Source: an uncultured Gammaproteobacteria bacterium
GTDB lineage: Bacteria; Pseudomonadota; Gammaproteobacteria; JAURND01
Reading direction: 5' to 3'
DNA: 64,000 bases
Assembly (NCBI GenBank): GCA_963714975.1
Contig: CAVQQD010000003.1
Location: 480,001 to 544,000, forward strand
The position numbers were made by a program, and so were the translations under genes. This document shows, piece by piece, positions 2,329-42,438 of the stretch (position 1 is the stretch's first letter; the number at the start of each line of letters is the position of its first letter). The notes under the pieces are model-generated. The model saw nothing but the letters and a program-made list of their open reading frames with translations, did no database searches and was not told the DNA's origin.

Positions 2329-2964
2329 CTAGTTGGGGGTATACCATTGGCGGCAGAGATAGTTAAAGCTTTCTTGATCATTGGTTTTTTCATCTAGTTG
2401 CCTTGAGAAGTAACGCTGAGCAACGTAGCTAAGTGTGGCTACGAAAAGCAAGGGAGCGGCTATTTCTAGGGCAACATAATCTGCATCCCAGATTCCAGTT
2501 GCGATTGTTCTCTGGATTTTTATAGCCGTAAAAAAGCAAGCGCTAGTGGCACAAAGATAGCCAAGCCACCATGAAAAACTCTCCCTTCGGTCGTAAGAGT
2601 CTATTTTTCGGCGCTCATTTGCTGCTAGTGCTTGAAACTCGTTTTTTACTTCTGGGCTTTTGAGCTTATTTTGCCAGTTGGAATATGCAGTTGCTATGCC
2701 ATTTTCACTCAAATATTCACGTTTTTGCTGGTTGAAATAATAAGCCAAACTAAAGGCAATTATGGCAATAACCAAGGGAGCAACCGAGAAAAAAATGGAA
2801 AGCGAATCAGGGGGGCCGTACTCTAATCCGTATATGCAACAACTAACAGAAAAATAGACACAGGGCGCTAGAGCAGTTATCCCTACTAACTTTGCACGAA
2901 AGTTATAGTCCTCATAGCAGGTTGCCTGTTTTTTTTGTTCTAATCCTAGGGCCTGAGTTGCCAT
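2329..2964 (-). CDS. Hypothetical membrane protein (about 4 TM segments)
   Basis: 211-aa ORF with RBS and hydrophobic segments; no family recognised. Confidence 0.6.
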   Translation of the reverse strand: MATQALGLEQKKQATCYEDYNFRAKLVGITALAPCVYFSVSCCIYGLEYGPPDSLSIFFSVAPLVIAIIAFSLAYYFNQQKREYLSENGIATAYSNWQNKLKSPEVKNEFQALAANERRKIDSYDRRESFSWWLGYLCATSACFFTAIKIQRTIATGIWDADYVALEIAAPLLFVATLSYVAQRYFSRQLDEKTNDQESFNYLCRQWYTPN

Positions 2965-3041
2965 ATTTGTCTCCTCGTGTAAAGATGAAGCCCATTATAT
3001 TATTTTTTGACCCATTATGTGAAGTATTTTGTTCAAAATTT

Positions 3042-3707
3042 ATGACATCTTCTGCTCCTTTATATCCTATTCGTAGTTATGTACGCCGCCAGGGGCGGTT
3101 GACATTACGCCAAGAATTGGCGCTTACCCAGCATTCCTCGCGGTATGTTTTACCTGGGGTTGCTATTGATTCTTGGGAGACTGTATTTGGACGCCAGGCT
3201 ATGACCAGCCTTGAAATTGGCTTTGGTATGGGACAGGTATTGCTTGACTTAGCTCGTCGTTACCCAGAAAAAAATTTTATTGGTATTGATATCTATCCGC
3301 CAGGGGTAGGATCGGTGCTGGCTCAGCTGGCGGCAGAAGATATAAGCAATGTACGCTTGTTTTGTGCGGATGTGGTCAGGATTATTCCTTTATTGCCGGA
3401 TGCTTCCTTGCAAGAAATTCTGATCTTTTTTCCGGATCCTTGGCCGAAGCGGCGGCATCATAAGCGTCGTTTAATCCAGCGTAGCTTTGTTGAATTACTG
3501 CTGCCAAAATTACGAGAAAATGGCTGCATTCATCTGGCTACGGATTGGGAAGATTATGCTGTGCATATGGCCAAAATTTTTAGTCAAATTCCTGAGTTGA
3601 GCCAAATTACTGCTGATCCCGCGCTTCGTCCATTAACTAAGTATGAACAGCGGGGACAACGTTTAGGCCATGGGGTTTGGGATTTTGCTTTTGTAAAAAC
3701 GACCTAA
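3042..3707 (+). CDS. trmB: tRNA (guanine-N7)-methyltransferase
   Basis: IRSYVRRQGR, LEIGFGMG, FFPDPWPKRRHHKRR, LATDWEDY, TKYEQRG; start moved to ATG 3042. Confidence 0.95.
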   Translation: MTSSAPLYPIRSYVRRQGRLTLRQELALTQHSSRYVLPGVAIDSWETVFGRQAMTSLEIGFGMGQVLLDLARRYPEKNFIGIDIYPPGVGSVLAQLAAEDISNVRLFCADVVRIIPLLPDASLQEILIFFPDPWPKRRHHKRRLIQRSFVELLLPKLRENGCIHLATDWEDYAVHMAKIFSQIPELSQITADPALRPLTKYEQRGQRLGHGVWDFAFVKTT

Positions 3708-3737
3708 GGTTTCCATTGGCAATGGAAACTTTGTGAA

Positions 3738-4859
3738 CTAAGCTCCTCTTGAGCGTATAAAGGTATAGCTAACACTTCTTCCTCCTGATTCACTTGGCAG
3801 CAAAATCTGGCGTGTAAGCAGGTCATTAATGTCTCTTAAAGCGGTATCTTGAGAACATTTAGCGAGTTTGGCCCATTTTGAAGAAGTAAGTTTGCCATAG
3901 AATGTTCCATCTAATAAGCGATTAAGGATGAAACGCTGTCTTTGGTTAAAGGATTCTCCGGCATGGATTCGCCAAAAATCCGCTTTACCTAGAATGGTTG
4001 TGAGAGTTTTTTCTGATGCTGCAATAGCACGTTGCAGGCAATTTAAATACCATTCGATCCATGCGCTAATGTTTAATGAGCCTTTTTGGCAATTTTCTAG
4101 GACACTGTAATAAGAGTCGCGTTCTCGTTGAATTTGGGCGGATAAACTATAAAATCTTTGTGTGCTTTTTTCGGAACGAGCCAGCGCCATATCGGCTATG
4201 GCACGCGCAATTCGACCATTGCCGTCATCAAAGGGATGGATCGTTACGAACCAAAAATGGGCTATGGCGGATTTTAGGACTAAATCCATTTCAGTCGCAT
4301 GATTATTAAACCATTGCAGAAATTTGGTCATTTCCTGATTTAATCGACTATAATCAGGGGCTTCAAAGTGGACTTTTTCATGTCCATGGGATCCGGATAC
4401 CACCCGCATGGGACCGCTAGATTGGTTACGCCAGTGGCCGACCGTAATCCGGTGTAAACCACTTCTGCCGGTGGGAAACAGGGCAGAATGCCAGCTAAAT
4501 AATCGATCTTTAGTCAGGGATGAAGGATAATTTTGTGTCGCATCAAGCAGTACTGCAACTATACCCTCTACATGCCGGTCTGCTTGGATAGTGCCTCCAA
4601 TATCCAGCCCTAATTTTTCTGCGATAGAAGAACGGACCTGTTTGGCATCAAGCTTTTCGCCTTCAATTTCGCTGGTTTTGATCACATCTTGAGTCAGGGT
4701 GTTTAATGTGGCTTCTTCTTGTAGTTGAAAACCCAGGGTATCCATTTGTCCTAATAAACGGCCTTGGTAATAGCGTACTTCTGCTAGGAGATCGACAAAT
4801 TTTGCTTGATCCCAGGTGAAATTAGGCCATTCTTTCTGCTCGTAAATATACATCGTCAT
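3738..4859 (-). CDS. Fic family protein (DUF4172-type N-terminus, C-terminal HTH)
   Basis: Canonical Fic motif HPFDDGNGRIAR; N-terminal YIYEQKEWPNFTWD; C-terminal SQDTALRDI. Confidence 0.92.
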   Translation of the reverse strand: MTMYIYEQKEWPNFTWDQAKFVDLLAEVRYYQGRLLGQMDTLGFQLQEEATLNTLTQDVIKTSEIEGEKLDAKQVRSSIAEKLGLDIGGTIQADRHVEGIVAVLLDATQNYPSSLTKDRLFSWHSALFPTGRSGLHRITVGHWRNQSSGPMRVVSGSHGHEKVHFEAPDYSRLNQEMTKFLQWFNNHATEMDLVLKSAIAHFWFVTIHPFDDGNGRIARAIADMALARSEKSTQRFYSLSAQIQRERDSYYSVLENCQKGSLNISAWIEWYLNCLQRAIAASEKTLTTILGKADFWRIHAGESFNQRQRFILNRLLDGTFYGKLTSSKWAKLAKCSQDTALRDINDLLTRQILLPSESGGRSVSYTFIRSRGA

Positions 4860-39924: not shown

Positions 39925-40392
39925 CTACGGAGAGGGCATCTGATACAGAGAGTTTTCTTGGACTTCTTCTATAATTAAATCCTCGCGTACAGATTTCATT
40001 GCGCTTATAACCCATTTAAGATCATCAAGATAGATTTTTTTGAAAAGATAAGTAAATGCTGTAACGAACAGTAGTCCTAATCCTTCCCCTGTTAAGGTCA
40101 TACTTTGCTCAGCAGCTTCGTCTAAAGCAGTGTAAGTTTTGTACATGGCATACGGGCTTGCAGTAAATAAAATTAAAAAGGGTAAAACCTGTGCTGCACT
40201 CTTAGCGGCTTGTGCCATTCTCACTTTTTTATAATGATATAGATCGCTATCAGGAAGAAAATTAATTAAGTGAATTCCTTGAACTAAGCTCTGTCTTTCT
40301 GCTGAGGTCGAATTATAAAAACGGTCGATAAAGTCTTTTTTTTGCGCTGGACTGTCCCATAACTGCTTAAACTTATACCCCTCCTCCCCAGG
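39925..40392 (-). pseudogene. Open frame with two C-terminal TM helices; probable 3' part of the gene broken by the repeat/IS110
   Basis: Frame is open from 40392 (PGEEGYKFKQLWDS...) to the stop at 39925 and begins right at the repeat boundary. Confidence 0.55.
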
Positions 40393-40454
40393 CTATCCGA
40401 TGCACATAAATTCGGTCAGCAATTGTAAGTCACCACTTGTGTTAAAGTAGTTCC

Positions 40455-40620
40455 TAAGAGAGAAAAGGCTCCCTCGCAAGAAGGAGCCTGCGGGCGTGAG
40501 CGACCGGTCAGCAATAGGTTATACAGCCGTGGGAATCAAGGTACTCTAGCCCTAACTCTCGATACGTTTGAATAGTTCATTTGGGACTAAAGCTCCCGCT
40601 TACAATCGTAAATATCGAGG
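40455..40620 (+). ncRNA. IS110 bridge RNA (5' stem-loop, target-binding loop, donor-binding loop); ends approximate
   Basis: Guides CGGTCAGCAAT 40505-40515, GGGAAT 40531-40536, ATAGTTCAT 40572-40580 and CTTACAAT 40599-40606 match the target and donor, each pair inside stems. Confidence 0.88.
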
Positions 40621-40625
40621 TTACC

Positions 40626-41579
40626 ATGAAATTGTATAGTTCTTTTATCGGTATGGATATAGGGAAATTTAATTTTGTTGTTGCCTTACATGGAGAAAAG
40701 ATCACGAAAGAGTATCCAAATAGCGCTGAGGGCATTAAGGATTTTTTAAAAGATTATGAAGAAATTTTACCCACAGCATTTTGTGTGGTTGAAACGACAG
40801 GGGGTCATGAAAAAATTTTGTTACTGGCCCTGCGTTCTAATAGATATGCAGTCCATCGTGCAGATACTAGGAAAGTAAAAAACTTTATCCATTCCTATGG
40901 TAAAAAGGCAAAAACAGATGCATTAGACGCTAAAGGACTAGCCCATTATAGTTATGAAAGGTATCAGGAATTAGATATTTATGAACCTCCTGATGAAACG
41001 GATATAGCACTTTTTACATTGGTAATGCGTAAAAATGATTTAACAGAGATGCTGGTTGCTGAAAAAAATCGCCTTAAATCGCCTAATAATCATGAAATAG
41101 TAGAAATAAGTTGTAAAAAAATGATTACCATGCTCTCGGAAGAAATCAAATTGCTCAATGAGAAAATAAATGAGCTGATTGAAGGTGTACCTTATTTAAG
41201 GGAAAAAAGGAAAGTTTTAAAGAGCATTCCAGGGATTGGTGATGTGCTGAGCTGTGAATTGATTACTTTATTGCCTGAACTAGGAACACTGGATAGGAGA
41301 AAAATAGCTGCTTTAGCTGGGTTAGCTCCTCAAGCAAATGAGAGTGGCAAATACAAAGGATACAGGCGCTGTGGTTATGGTCGTCAAGGAGTGAAGCCAA
41401 AATTATTTCTCGCTGCCATGGCGGCAAGGAATTCAAATTCGCATCTAAAAGTCTTTTATGAAAAATTGGTTGGGTCAGGTAAAAAGAAAATGGTGGCTTT
41501 AACCGCTTTAATGAGAAAAATTTTAGTCATCGCCAATGCAAAGGTAAGAGATTTCAATAAAGAATATAATTTGGCTTGA
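40626..41579 (+). CDS. IS110-family DEDD recombinase/transposase
   Basis: GMDIGK, VVETTG, KTDALDA (DEDD); SIPGIG; AGLAPQANESGK (catalytic Ser region); ALMRK. Confidence 0.96.
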   Translation: MKLYSSFIGMDIGKFNFVVALHGEKITKEYPNSAEGIKDFLKDYEEILPTAFCVVETTGGHEKILLLALRSNRYAVHRADTRKVKNFIHSYGKKAKTDALDAKGLAHYSYERYQELDIYEPPDETDIALFTLVMRKNDLTEMLVAEKNRLKSPNNHEIVEISCKKMITMLSEEIKLLNEKINELIEGVPYLREKRKVLKSIPGIGDVLSCELITLLPELGTLDRRKIAALAGLAPQANESGKYKGYRRCGYGRQGVKPKLFLAAMAARNSNSHLKVFYEKLVGSGKKKMVALTALMRKILVIANAKVRDFNKEYNLA

Positions 41580-41871
41580 AAGAGCACCAAGGAGGGTGCG
41601 GTCAAGCCAAATCGACAAGCCCGCTCAGCGGGCGCGTCAGTAGGGAGAAACCCTAGTTTAGGCTGGGGTTTATAGACTTGTATGCTTAAAAATTTTATTT
41701 TTTTAAAATTTTTAAGACATAGTTGATTCCCGCTGAAACCTTGCTCCCCCGACGGGTCCTGCCGCGCTGCGGCCACCCCATCGTGCTCGTTCCTGCGCGC
41801 GTTGGGGTCCCCGCCAGCGGCAGCAAGGCTTCAGCGGGAATTGCTGACCGAATTTGTGTGCATCGGATAGC

Positions 41872-42438
41872 TTCATAGAGAGCACCTGTGTGATTGGGAT
41901 TCGTTATGAGTACATTACAGTAGTGGTTTATTGCGCTGGCAGGAGACGATAGCTTTCCTAGATGATATTCATTCTCAACATGATTCGAGTTTTGCTGCCA
42001 AATATTCCAAACTACCGAAGGTGGGTGATTAAAAATATTGGAATCTTCAGGAATTTTAGAGGCTTCGCCTATACCAATCAAAAAAGCTAATCGACTTGTG
42101 GCATCAATATCGCCGGGATTTTTTCTCAAAACAGCTCGGCAAAGATCCGCTCCTTTTCTTCCTTTTATAGTCAAATAATCGGCTTTACGCCGTTCTGGGT
42201 AATCTTCAGCAATATTTTTTGGCGAGGGTGTTTCCTCTTCTTGAGAGTTGGGTAGAATTTCCTTAGTTTCTTTGATGCGATTTTTCCATAGGGGATGCTC
42301 CTGCTGCTCACTAAAAATTTTCGTATTTTTTGAAATACGAGCCATTACAGCTAAGTCTCGGTCAGCAAGAAAATCATAGACATAAAGCTGCGGATCAACC
42401 GCCAGCTCACTCAAGTGTTTTGGTTTATCTTCAGCCAT
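41872..42438 (-). pseudogene. 5' part of an F-box-like protein gene that runs into the repeat/IS110
   Basis: N-terminal LSELAVDPQLYVYDFLADRDLAVMARISK...W; the frame reads into the repeat after 41872. Confidence 0.5.

What the first reader, a model, noticed from the sequence alone, without database searches (positions are those of the whole stretch)
40424..40620. IS110 bridge RNA readable from sequence, with an AT core and all four guides matching its own junctions
Seen: the left junction is CGGTCAGCA-AT-TGTAAG and the right junction is ATAGTTG-AT-TCCC. This gives target CGGTCAGCA[AT]TCCC and donor ATAGTTG[AT]TGTAAG. The 200-nt non-coding left end has a 5' hairpin (AGGCTCC/GGAGCCT, 40466-40489). 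A first loop follows with CGGTCAGCAAT (40505-40515, 11/11 to the left target + core) and GGGAAT (40531-40536, reverse complement of core + right target). A second loop, closed by CTCGATA/TATCGAG, holds ATAGTTCAT (40572-40580, 8/9 to the left donor + core) and CTTACAAT (40599-40606, reverse complement of core + right donor, 8/8). Each loop has a small hairpin between its two guides. Established: this is the target-loop/donor-loop architecture of IS621-type IS110 bridge RNAs, where the core is CT. Inference: an intact programmable RNA-guided recombinase with a different core and possibly longer guide pairing, on a compact 317-aa enzyme.
Basis: partly seen in the sequence, partly recalled or inferred. 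Interest (0 to 1): 0.92.

Follow-up and report, generated by a model that had tools for sequence, protein, structure and literature searches.

The report
Intact IS110 element with bridge RNA
This is an intact, recently active IS110-family mobile element whose 5' non-coding end encodes a bridge RNA that matches both its insertion site and its own ends; the reading is correct, but it is an ordinary new member of a class described in 2024.

Summary
The element is window 40424-41727 (1304 bp), flanked by AT. It encodes a 317-aa DEDD/Ser recombinase (40626-41579) homologous to IS621 and ISCro4.

Fifteen orthologous elements share the ends TGTAAG...GTTGAT but sit in different sites. Their first-loop segments change with their own flanks. 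The left guide matches 5.2 of 7 on its own flank against 2.3 on others'. The right guide matches 4.25 of 5 against 1.2. No permutation of 100,000 reached either sum. The stems covary: 17 of 33 pairs carry compensatory changes. A split sigma-70 promoter, with its -35 across the right-end/left-end joint, is conserved. The target is the terminus of a GC-rich repeat with 29 empty copies in the genome.

So this is a genuine IS621-type bridge RNA. The claimed extras fail:
- The guide is 7 nt plus core, because the two extra matches are invariant linker bases.
- An AT core is within the reported range.
- 317 aa is typical for this clade.

No expression or activity data could be obtained. Verdict: new member of a known kind.

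The parts
40390..40423 (+). Left flank: outer part of the left arm of a host GC-rich palindromic repeat. It ends in the left target GTCAGCA (40415-40421) plus the core AT (40422-40423).
   Evidence: The right arm (about 41806-41872) is its inverted copy and holds the uninterrupted site.
40424..41727 (+). IS110-group insertion sequence, 1304 bp. Left end 202 nt, recombinase gene, right end 148 nt. No terminal inverted repeats. The AT dinucleotide is present at both junctions.
   Evidence: There are three full copies: one has 0 differences from the window copy and one has 1 difference in 1304 bp. There is also one copy interrupted by another IS and one truncated relic.
40424..40429 (+). Right donor (RD) TGTAAG, the first bases of the element.
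   Evidence: The same end was found by copy comparison in G166, G054 and G205.
40440..40448 (+). Extended -10 box (TG-n-TAAAGT) of the split promoter. Its -35 (TTGAT|T) forms only when the right end (41723-41727) is joined to base 40424.
   Evidence: -35 TTGATT in 12 of 12 orthologues with a known right end. -10 at least 4/6 in 14 of 15. TG extension in 10 of 15. This is a consensus match only, with no transcript data.
40455..40621 (+). Predicted bridge RNA. The 5' end is inferred from the -10 box; the 3' end is taken as the end of the donor-loop basal stem.
40466..40489 (+). 5' stem-loop (AGGCTCC / GGAGCCT).
   Evidence: All 15 orthologues have a hairpin here, variable in length and sequence.
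40492..40552 (+). Target-binding loop. Stems: GGGC/GCCC (40492-95 with 40549-52), GAG/CTC (40498-500 with 40544-46), ACC/GGT (40503-05 with 40540-42). Left target guide GTCAGCA plus core AT (40507-40515). Inner hairpin GGTT/AGCC (40517-20 with 40525-28). Right target guide TGGGA plus core complement AT (40530-40536). Handshake dinucleotide CA (40537-40538).
   Evidence: helix 1 has 10 pairs, 7 with compensatory changes, 100% of cells paired; guide/target covariation; handshake.
40556..40620 (+). Donor-binding loop. Basal stem CTCGATA/TATCGAG (40558-64 with 40613-19). GTTTG/TAAAT (40566-70 with 40609-13). Left donor guide ATAGTTC(AT) (40572-40580). Inner hairpin GGGA/TCCC (40583-86 with 40594-97). 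Right donor guide CTTACA plus AT (40599-40606), followed by CG (40607-08). The Shine-Dalgarno GAGG (40617-40620) lies in the 3' strand of the basal stem.
40626..41579 (+). Recombinase gene, 317 aa. RuvC-like DEDD domain plus Tnp domain. D11, E56, D98, D101 and S240 align with the GID, E(A/T)TG, KTDxxDA and ESG motifs of IS621.
   Evidence: PF01548, PF02371. (NF033542, 160.7 bits against a cutoff of 140). (ISCro4 9t56 E 9.4e-32; IS621 8wt6 E 4.6e-29). (these residues are invariant in 6 orthologues).
41580..41727 (+). Right end, 148 nt. It ends in the left donor ATAGTTG (41719-41725) plus the core AT (41726-41727). It contains a GC-rich hairpin (about 41618-41637) that another IS interrupts in one sister copy.
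41728..41732 (+). Right target TCCCG. The host repeat continues from here.
41835..41846 (-). Unoccupied copy of the target (CAGCAATTCCCG) in the right arm of the same palindrome.

Best explanation
Window 40424-41727 is an intact, recently mobile IS110-group insertion sequence. Its 202-nt left end encodes a bridge RNA of roughly 165 nt on the + strand.

The RNA has a 5' stem-loop and then two stem-enclosed internal loops.
- In the first loop, GUCAGCA-AU has the sequence of the top strand of the left target plus core, so it would pair with the bottom strand. UGGGA-AU is complementary to the top strand of core plus right target.
- In the second loop, AUAGUU(C) and CUUACA-AU do the same for the element's own right and left ends.

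By homology with IS621, four copies of the 317-aa DEDD/Ser recombinase would hold this RNA. They would synapse the circular element (joined ends ...ATAGTTG-AT-TGTAAG...) with the site GTCAGCA-AT-TCCCG and exchange strands at the AT core.

The site is the terminal sequence of a GC-rich repeat family, so the genome offers many copies. Joining the ends would create the promoter for the RNA and the recombinase gene: -35 TTGAT|T across the joint, -10 in the left end.

Shown here: the anatomy, copy number, guide/target and guide/donor covariation, stem covariation and protein homology. Inferred: transcription, RNA-protein binding, the circular intermediate and catalysis.
For: 1. All strings are at the stated coordinates. 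The four guide matches in order occurred in 0 of 200,000 shuffles.

2. Boundaries come from copy comparison. The five insertions share CAGCAAT on the left. The four with a right end share TCCCG(C/G)T.

3. Orthologues at 47-57% protein identity have the same ends and AT core but different flanks. Their loop-1 segments follow their own flanks.
- Left guide, 7 nt: own flank 5.2 matches against 2.29 for others' flanks; 0 of 100,000 permutations reach the observed sum.
- Right guide, 5 nt: 4.25 against 1.23; 0 of 100,000.
- The 4 bases next to the core match in 11 of 12. The twelfth (G205 copy L019) has a G:T wobble, and its two sister copies match fully by my reading of the flanks printed.

4. The left donor guide follows the right end. 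ATGGTTG occurs in exactly the 3 elements (G054, L043, L051) whose right end reads ATGGTTG. Eleven of 12 match 7/7; the window element matches 6/7.

5. Structure: 94.6% of cells pair against 86.3% in shuffles. Seventeen of 33 pairs have compensatory changes, 0 of 500 shuffles reach this, and slid controls pair 32-50%. Thirty-four of the 482 cells are G:U, which would be C:A on the other strand. This favours an RNA of the + strand.

6. A covariance model of the two loops finds a match just upstream of the recombinase gene in 59 of 98 loci. Ten of those are training loci, so 49 of 88 others match. The model also finds exactly the 5 expected places in the own genome. For the 50 matches in metagenome loci, the gap to the projected start codon ranges from -20 to +30 nt, with one at 99.

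7. Protein: PF01548 and PF02371, NCBIfam 'IS110 family RNA-guided transposase' above its cutoff, homology to IS621 and ISCro4 with catalytic motifs aligned.

8. The split promoter is conserved.

9. The orientation of all four guides is the one described for IS621 (PMC11208160, passages read).

10. The target motif CAGCAATTCCCG occurs 29 times, against 0.2 expected from base composition.
Against: - No transcript, circular junction or recombination product was observed.
- The single-sequence fold is not more stable than shuffles (z = -1.34).
- Rfam 15 gave no match for the region; the best hits were unrelated families at E of 0.16 or worse.
- Guide/target agreement is imperfect. The left guide matches its flank poorly in L050 (1/7), L049 (3/7), L048 (4/7) and L047 (4/7).
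- The window element's left donor guide has a C where its right end has G (6/7).
- One sister copy carries a G-to-A change that breaks a pair in the donor-loop basal stem.
- For G294 and the 10 metagenome elements, the ends were located by searching for TGTAAG and GTTGAT. Conservation of the ends in those 11 is therefore by construction. Their flanks were not selected.
- The orthologues are related, so shuffle and permutation counts overstate independence.
Confidence: 0.93

Rival explanations
1. The element is an IS110 member and the RNA once worked, but this lineage is now inert. The weakened -10 box with an 18-nt spacer, the mismatch in the left donor guide and the short donor-loop hairpin could have disabled it. 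On this view the copies are relics.
For: The -10 box is TAAAGT (4/6) with an 18-nt spacer, where 14 of 15 orthologues have 17 nt. The left donor guide matches 6/7 where 11 of 12 match 7/7. The inner donor hairpin is only 4 bp where orthologues have longer ones. One copy is interrupted and one is truncated.
Against: Three full copies at different sites differ by 0 and 1 bases in 1304, which indicates recent transposition. The ORF is intact and all catalytic motifs are present. All five insertions lie in the cognate motif.
Confidence: 0.04
2. The guide segments act as DNA rather than RNA. Single-stranded left-end DNA would pair with target and ends, as in the subterminal guide sequences of IS200/IS605 elements (comparison recalled, not tested).
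For: Sequence complementarity alone cannot tell RNA from DNA. No transcript was seen here.
Against: The recombinase is homologous to IS621 and ISCro4. For IS621, RNA binding and RNA-guided recombination were shown (PMC11208160 and PMC11208158, passages read). Thirty-four G:U cells in the conserved stems are strand-specific. A conserved promoter precedes the structure.
Confidence: 0.02
3. The left end is only a 5' UTR and promoter region, and the four matches are chance or reflect protein-binding repeats.
For: Single-sequence fold z = -1.34. No Rfam match.
Against: Zero of 200,000 shuffles give the four matches in order. Loop-1 segments change with the flanks in orthologues, which protein-binding repeats of the element cannot explain. 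The stems covary.
Confidence: 0.01

Closest known systems
IS621 of Escherichia coli: bridge RNA plus IS110 recombinase (Durrant et al. 2024, PMC11208160; Hiraizumi et al. 2024, PMC11208158; PDB 8wt6)
   Same: - The RNA is encoded in the longer left end.
- It has a 5' stem-loop, then a target-binding loop, then a donor-binding loop, each with an inner hairpin between two guides.
- The left guides have top-strand sense and the right guides are complementary to the top strand.
- The left target is 7 nt plus a 2-nt core, and the right target is short.
- The dinucleotide 3' of the right target guide is complementary to donor positions 6-7 (handshake): position 7 in 12 of 12 and position 6 in 9 of 12.
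- The DEDD and Ser motifs are present.
- The promoter is split across the joined ends.
- The target lies in a repeated palindromic element.
   Different: - The core is AT instead of CT.
- The protein is related only at E 4.6e-29 over residues 7-304.
- In this clade the left donor guide is followed by the core AT in only 2 of 15, whereas the IS621 paper says all four guides include the core.
- The base 3' of the right donor guide is an invariant C. It can pair with the element's own G7 in 12 of 12. It pairs with target position 7 in only 5 of 15.
- A 5'-terminal GAGAG pairs with CUCUC ahead of the donor loop.
- Whether IS621 shares these last features I did not check.
ISCro4 recombinase (PDB 9t56), used as a bridge recombinase
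   Same: It is the best match among solved structures (E 9.4e-32, residues 6-304), with the same domain order and catalytic motifs.
   Different: It is a distant relative. Its RNA and target were not compared here. For the related preprint on human-genome rearrangement (10.1101/2025.05.14.653916) I saw only the search listing.
ISPpu10 of Pseudomonas putida (bioRxiv 10.64898/2026.03.19.712850; abstract read), and REP-targeting IS110 members such as ISPpu9 (PMC12288879; listing only)
   Same: All insertions fall in copies of one conserved intergenic repeat with a GC-rich stem-loop next to the base-paired site. Here, 29 empty and 5 occupied sites lie at the terminus of a GC-rich repeat.
   Different: Whether the adjacent GC-rich structure contributes to recognition here was not tested. 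Only 16 of the 29 empty sites carry the GACGGGT motif within the 70 nt counted from the start of the site.
IS1111 group and seekRNA-type elements of the IS110 family
   Same: They have the same recombinase family and the same principle of RNA-guided target and donor recognition (PMC11208160, section 12 passages).
   Different: Those elements carry the RNA in the right end and have 7-17 bp subterminal inverted repeats. Here the RNA is in the left end (202 nt against a 148-nt right end). No long subterminal repeats were looked for beyond reading the ends.

Membership tests
IS110 family (IS110 group) bridge-RNA element | Recombinase with an N-terminal RuvC-like DEDD domain and a C-terminal Tnp domain carrying the catalytic Ser | tested here: met
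   PF01548 (E 3.9e-19) and PF02371 (E 9.6e-14). NF033542 scores 160.7 bits against a cutoff of 140. D11, E56, D98, D101 and S240 align with the IS621 motifs and are invariant in 6 orthologues. The IS621 residue list comes from PMC11208158.
IS110 family (IS110 group) bridge-RNA element | No target-site duplication beyond a 2-nt core present at both junctions | tested here: met
   AT is at both junctions. The paralogous empty sites read CAGCA-AT-TCCCG with one AT. The ends TGTAAG and GTTGAT are not inverted repeats.
IS110 family (IS110 group) bridge-RNA element | The non-coding left end is longer than the right end and holds the RNA upstream of the gene | tested here: met
   Left end 202 nt, right end 148 nt. 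Model matches lie just upstream of the gene in 59 of 98 loci.
IS110 family (IS110 group) bridge-RNA element | The RNA has a 5' stem-loop and two stem-enclosed internal loops | tested here: met
   Thirty-three pairs, 94.6% of cells paired, 17 pairs with compensatory changes, 0 of 500 shuffles as high. A 5' hairpin is present in all 15.
IS110 family (IS110 group) bridge-RNA element | The first-loop guides covary with the target. The left guide has top-strand sense and the right guide is complementary to the top strand. | tested here: met
   own flank against others' flanks is 5.2 vs 2.29 of 7 and 4.25 vs 1.23 of 5. Zero of 100,000 permutations reach either sum. Misses are L050, L049, L048 and L047 for the left guide.
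IS110 family (IS110 group) bridge-RNA element | The second-loop guides match the element's own ends | tested here: met
   Left donor guide: 7/7 in 11 of 12, with an A/G change tracked in 3 elements. Right donor guide: CUUACA or UUUACA against TGTAAG in 15 of 15. The ends of 11 elements were found by motif, so only the 4 elements defined by copy comparison are fully independent.
IS110 family (IS110 group) bridge-RNA element | A promoter is reconstituted at the right-end/left-end joint of the circular form | tested here: inconclusive
   Consensus hexamers are conserved. The script chose the best of four spacer lengths, and no transcript or circle was observed.
IS110 family (IS110 group) bridge-RNA element | The RNA is expressed, binds the recombinase and directs recombination that can be reprogrammed | not testable with these tools
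   No RNA holder was listed. Only four short DNA contig pieces in the coding region could be laid.
IS1111 group of the IS110 family | RNA in a long right end, with 7-17 bp subterminal inverted repeats | tested here: not met
   The structured, covarying RNA is in the left end, and the right end is the shorter of the two. Group features are as stated in PMC11208160.

The most novel reading that the evidence does not exclude
This large, mostly metagenomic clade (ends TGTAAG...GTTGAT, AT core) may run a variant of the IS621 scheme in three respects.
1. The left donor guide omits the core.
2. An invariant C after the right donor guide pairs with the element's own G7. In IS621, cognate pairing at that position locks the complex. 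Only the next base follows target position 6 (Watson-Crick in 8 of 15).
3. A 5'-terminal GAGAG competes with the recombinase Shine-Dalgarno (GAGG) for the same CUCUC. Folding of the RNA would then be coupled to translation of the enzyme.
Probability: 0.2. Interest if true: 0.45.

Novelty: new member of a known kind. Interest (0 to 1): 0.3.

Why it matters
It shows that a bridge RNA can be read correctly from a single raw sequence. It also adds one well-delimited natural system to the catalogue, with known ends, core, 14-nt target, 29 natural empty sites and 14 orthologues carrying different natural targets.

For tool builders, the clade offers an AT-core recombinase family with near-invariant donor ends and naturally varied target guides. 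For biology it is one more case of an IS110 element living on a host repeat family.

It does not change the picture set out in 2024. NCBI already names the protein family 'IS110 family RNA-guided transposase'. At least 4,818 relatives at E of 1e-40 or better exist in public data.

Tried and rejected
- Rfam 15 on 40000-42200 at E up to 10 gave 7 unrelated weak hits and no bridge-RNA family.
- The single-sequence fold was not significant (z = -1.34), so I turned to comparative evidence.
- The search for related loci in genome contigs with the single protein gave only 2 distant actinobacterial hits. I replaced it with the genome search.
- The order-level search covered 9 genomes and gave one distant relative at 33% identity.
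- Sequencing runs: no RNA holder was listed and shares were at most 0.16. Laying X1, X2, X3 and X14 gave four contig pieces of 185-264 nt inside the coding region, no joints and no raw reads. This says nothing about expression or circles.
- A regular expression for the guides missed 3 of 15 elements. I then read the guides from the alignment and checked that each string is present in its left end.
- RNAalifold on the MAFFT alignment mis-drew the donor loop by pairing the two donor guides with each other. I wrote the structure by hand from per-sequence folds and tested it.
- The plasmid collection held nothing closer than 57% identity over 58% of the protein.
- One paper search on coupling of the bridge RNA to the ribosome binding site found nothing relevant. 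That is one search of the held library, not proof that the idea is absent from print.
- Supplementary tables of the bridge-RNA papers were not opened. They are said to list orthologues, cores and targets, and they may already contain this clade.

Elements left out of the guide/target test:
- L020: the contig is cut inside the RNA.
- L021: the 5' part of the gene is missing.
- L042, L053, L055 and L056: no TGTAAG within 400 nt upstream.
- L044: the contig holds neither end.

Full report
**Observation.** The left junction reads CGGTCAGCAAT|TGTAAG and the right junction ATAGTTGAT|TCCC. The window is G000:C3:480001-544000.

The same 1304-bp sequence occurs at four places in the genome:
- at C2:68585, with 0 differences;
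- at C3:459657, with 1 difference (G to A at position 138);
- at C3:402655, identical up to about position 1203, then interrupted by a 1.4-kb element, with the remainder at C3:405271-405374;
- as a truncated, diverged relic of the first 163 nt at C3:400238.

All five left flanks end in CAGCAAT. All four right flanks begin TCCCG(C/G)T. The window copy sits in the left arm of a GC-rich palindrome, and the right arm still holds the uninterrupted site CAGCAATTCCCG (41835-41846, minus strand). In 200,000 shuffles of the left end, the four guide matches never occurred together in order.

**The protein.** The gene at 40626-41579 encodes 317 aa.
- It carries PF01548 (DEDD_Tnp_IS110) and PF02371 (Transposase_20).
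- It passes the NCBIfam model 'IS110 family RNA-guided transposase'.
- Among solved structures it matches ISCro4 (9t56, E 9.4e-32) and IS621 (8wt6, E 4.6e-29) over residues 6-304.
- D11, E56, D98, D101 and S240 align with the motifs that hold D11, E60, D102, D105 and S241 of IS621. That residue list is from PMC11208158. The same residues are invariant in six orthologues.
- The collection holds at least 4,818 relatives at E of 1e-40 or better among the 8,000 candidates scored. The closest is 87% identical, and nearly all are of similar length.

**Comparative test of the guides.** A sample of 400 genomes of the class gave six genomes with relatives at 47-57% identity. Three of them (G054, G166, G205) hold several copies, so their ends could be set by copy comparison. 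A metagenome scan added fourteen loci at 45-59% identity.

Every element whose ends I could place begins TGTAAG and ends (A/G)GTTGAT. For G294 and the ten metagenome loci I found the ends by searching for those motifs, so their conservation there is by construction. The flanks differ. Examples are CTCGCA-AT-GACGG in G166, AGCT-AT-TCTAA in G054, GCAATC-AT-TAA(C/T)AC in G205 and TCTCAGG-AT-GACAG in L051.

In the alignment of the left ends, the first loop has this layout:
- a conserved linker (consensus GAGCGACCG);
- seven variable bases;
- the core;
- a hairpin, (A/T)GGT...ACCG;
- five variable bases;
- AT;
- CA in 9 of 15, then (A/G)GGT...

The seven bases equal the element's own left flank at a mean of 5.2 positions, against 2.29 for other elements' flanks. 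The five bases are complementary to the element's own right flank at 4.25, against 1.23. No permutation of 100,000 reached either sum.

The four bases next to the core match in 11 of 12. The twelfth (G205 copy L019) has a G:T wobble, and its two sister copies match fully by my reading. The misses are real and are reported: L050 1/7, L049 3/7, L048 and L047 4/7 for the left guide.

In the second loop, AUAGUUG changes to AUGGUUG in exactly the three elements whose right end reads ATGGTTG.

The orientation of all four guides is the one published for IS621. The left guides pair with the bottom strand and the right guides with the top strand (PMC11208160).

**Structure.** On the 15-sequence alignment I wrote a structure by hand. 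It has three stem segments closing loop 1, an inner hairpin in each loop, a basal stem, and a GUUUG/UAAAC helix closing loop 2.
- It pairs 94.6% of cells, against 86.3% in shuffles.
- Seventeen of 33 pairs carry compensatory changes.
- No shuffle of 500 reaches these values.
- Slid controls pair 32-50%.
- Thirty-four of the 482 cells are G:U, which fits an RNA of the + strand.

A covariance model built from this alignment finds a match directly upstream of the recombinase gene in 59 of 98 loci. Ten are training loci, so 49 of 88 others match, including relatives at only 35-40% protein identity. In the own genome it finds only the five expected places. The RNA therefore belongs to a wide left-end RNA family, not to a peculiarity of this element.

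**Promoter.** The last five bases of the right end plus the first base of the left end give TTGATT in 12 of 12 elements with a known right end. Seventeen bases further on (18 in the window element) lies a -10 box. It scores at least 4/6 in 14 of 15, and TG precedes it in 10 of 15 (the script took the best of four spacers).

This matches the published observation that excision reconstitutes the promoter (PMC11208160). It would place the 5' end of the RNA near 40455. This is a consensus match, not an observed transcript.

**Target.** CAGCAATTCCCG occurs 29 times in the 2.56-Mb genome, against 0.2 expected from base composition. Twenty-five of the 29 continue CGCTG or CGCTC, and 16 have GACGGGT within the 70 nt counted from the start of the site. 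Unique sequence gives way to the repeat just before CAGCAAT. The element therefore inserts a few bases inside the terminus of a GC-rich repeat family, as other IS110 members do with REP-like repeats (ISPpu10 abstract). Four empty sites lie in the window itself.

**What is not special.**
Those two columns are invariant in all 15 orthologues. Only 7 of the 29 empty sites carry the GT that matches guide positions 1-2, and the sister copies match 7-9 bases (my reading). The guide length is that of IS621.
- The AT core fits the published rule that the T is almost invariant and the first base variable. GT, AT and TT cores work for IS621 (PMC11208158). Two metagenome copies even have GT at the left junction and AT at the right (L043, L045).
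- The size of 317 aa is typical of the clade.

**What may differ from IS621.** These points were seen in passing and only partly followed up.
- The two bases after the left donor guide equal the core in only 2 of 15.
- The base after the right donor guide is an invariant C. It can pair with the element's own G7 in 12 of 12, whereas it pairs with target position 7 in 5 of 15. The next base pairs with target position 6 in 8 of 15. In IS621, cognate pairing at this position was reported to block strand exchange (PMC11208158).
- The dinucleotide after the right target guide behaves as published. It is complementary to donor position 7 in 12 of 12 and to position 6 in 9 of 12.
- A GAGAG at the predicted 5' end pairs with CUCUC just ahead of loop 2. 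This helix pairs 97.3% of cells, 3 of 5 pairs carry compensatory changes, and slid controls pair 31-64%. The CUCUC overlaps the 5' strand of the loop-2 basal stem, whose 3' strand contains the recombinase Shine-Dalgarno GAGG (40617-40620). The two pairings exclude each other, which could couple RNA folding to translation. This is a hypothesis only.

**Limits.**
- No RNA run holds the sequence, and the DNA runs gave only short contig pieces.
- Rfam has no matching family.
- The earlier-findings tool and the tool that fetches contigs for a given protein were closed.
- Supplementary tables of the bridge-RNA papers were not opened and may already list this clade.
- The orthologues are related, so the permutation and shuffle figures overstate independence.

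**Verdict.** This is an intact, recently mobile IS110-group element with an IS621-type bridge RNA, and a new member of a known kind.

Noticed in passing
window 40458-40462 with 40556-40560; Shine-Dalgarno at 40617-40620: GAGAG at the predicted 5' end of the RNA pairs with CUCUC ahead of the donor loop. In 15 orthologues 97.3% of cells pair and 3 of 5 pairs have compensatory changes. This helix excludes the outer part of the donor-loop basal stem, whose 3' strand holds the recombinase Shine-Dalgarno GAGG. It could be a folding/translation switch.
   Followed up: partly
window 40607-40608 (CG after the right donor guide) and 40579-40580: The base after the right donor guide is C in 15 of 15. It can pair with the element's own G7 in 12 of 12 but with target position 7 in only 5 of 15. 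The next base pairs with target position 6 in 8 of 15. The left donor guide is followed by the core AT in only 2 of 15. Both differ from what the IS621 papers describe.
   Followed up: partly
window 14642 (+), 14773 (-), 32700 (-), 41835 (-); 29 sites genome-wide: A GC-rich repeat family has the terminus CAGCAATTCCCGCTG... The motif occurs 29 times against 0.2 expected. Some copies carry a second outer layer (GCTATCCGATGCACA...AATTCGGT). The nature of the family (REP, MITE or other) was not worked out.
   Followed up: partly
G000:C3:403869-405270 (L012 about 2513-3914): One sister copy is interrupted in the GC-rich hairpin of its right end by a 1.4-kb element. That element has roughly 13-bp imperfect terminal inverted repeats, an apparent 3-bp duplication (CTC), and an ORF with rve, rve_3 and rve_2 integrase domains. 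It looks like an IS3-family element; the family name is recalled, not tested.
   Followed up: partly
G000:C3:400238-400400: This is a truncated relic of the left end (163 nt, 96% identity) with changed guides: GGGCAGCA-AT, GAGA-AT and ATAGTTA-AT. Its own left flank reads AGCAGCAAT, so the changed base in the left guide matches its flank. The covariance model scores it 81.8 bits.
   Followed up: partly
L043 (left junction at 144-145) and L045 (932-933): Two metagenome orthologues have GT at the left junction and AT at the right. In L043 the left guide also reads GU at the core positions. This fits a tolerated mismatch at the first core base, with the left junction keeping the target's core.
   Followed up: no
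window 41695-42438 (-): A 247-aa ORF with no Pfam match in its unique part runs from unique sequence through the host repeat into the last 33 nt of the IS right end. Its C-terminal tail is therefore repeat- and IS-derived.
   Followed up: no
L031 (G054:C4), between positions 250 and 1504 of the locus turned to the recombinase gene's strand: One copy of the G054 orthologue is interrupted near the start of its recombinase gene by about 1.25 kb, with roughly 10 bp duplicated at the edges. The insert was not examined.
   Followed up: no
L019, L033, L039 (G205): The three G205 copies lie inside a larger region repeated at 87-91% identity over 2.7-3.9 kb. Their target may be part of a multi-copy gene or of another mobile element.
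   Followed up: no
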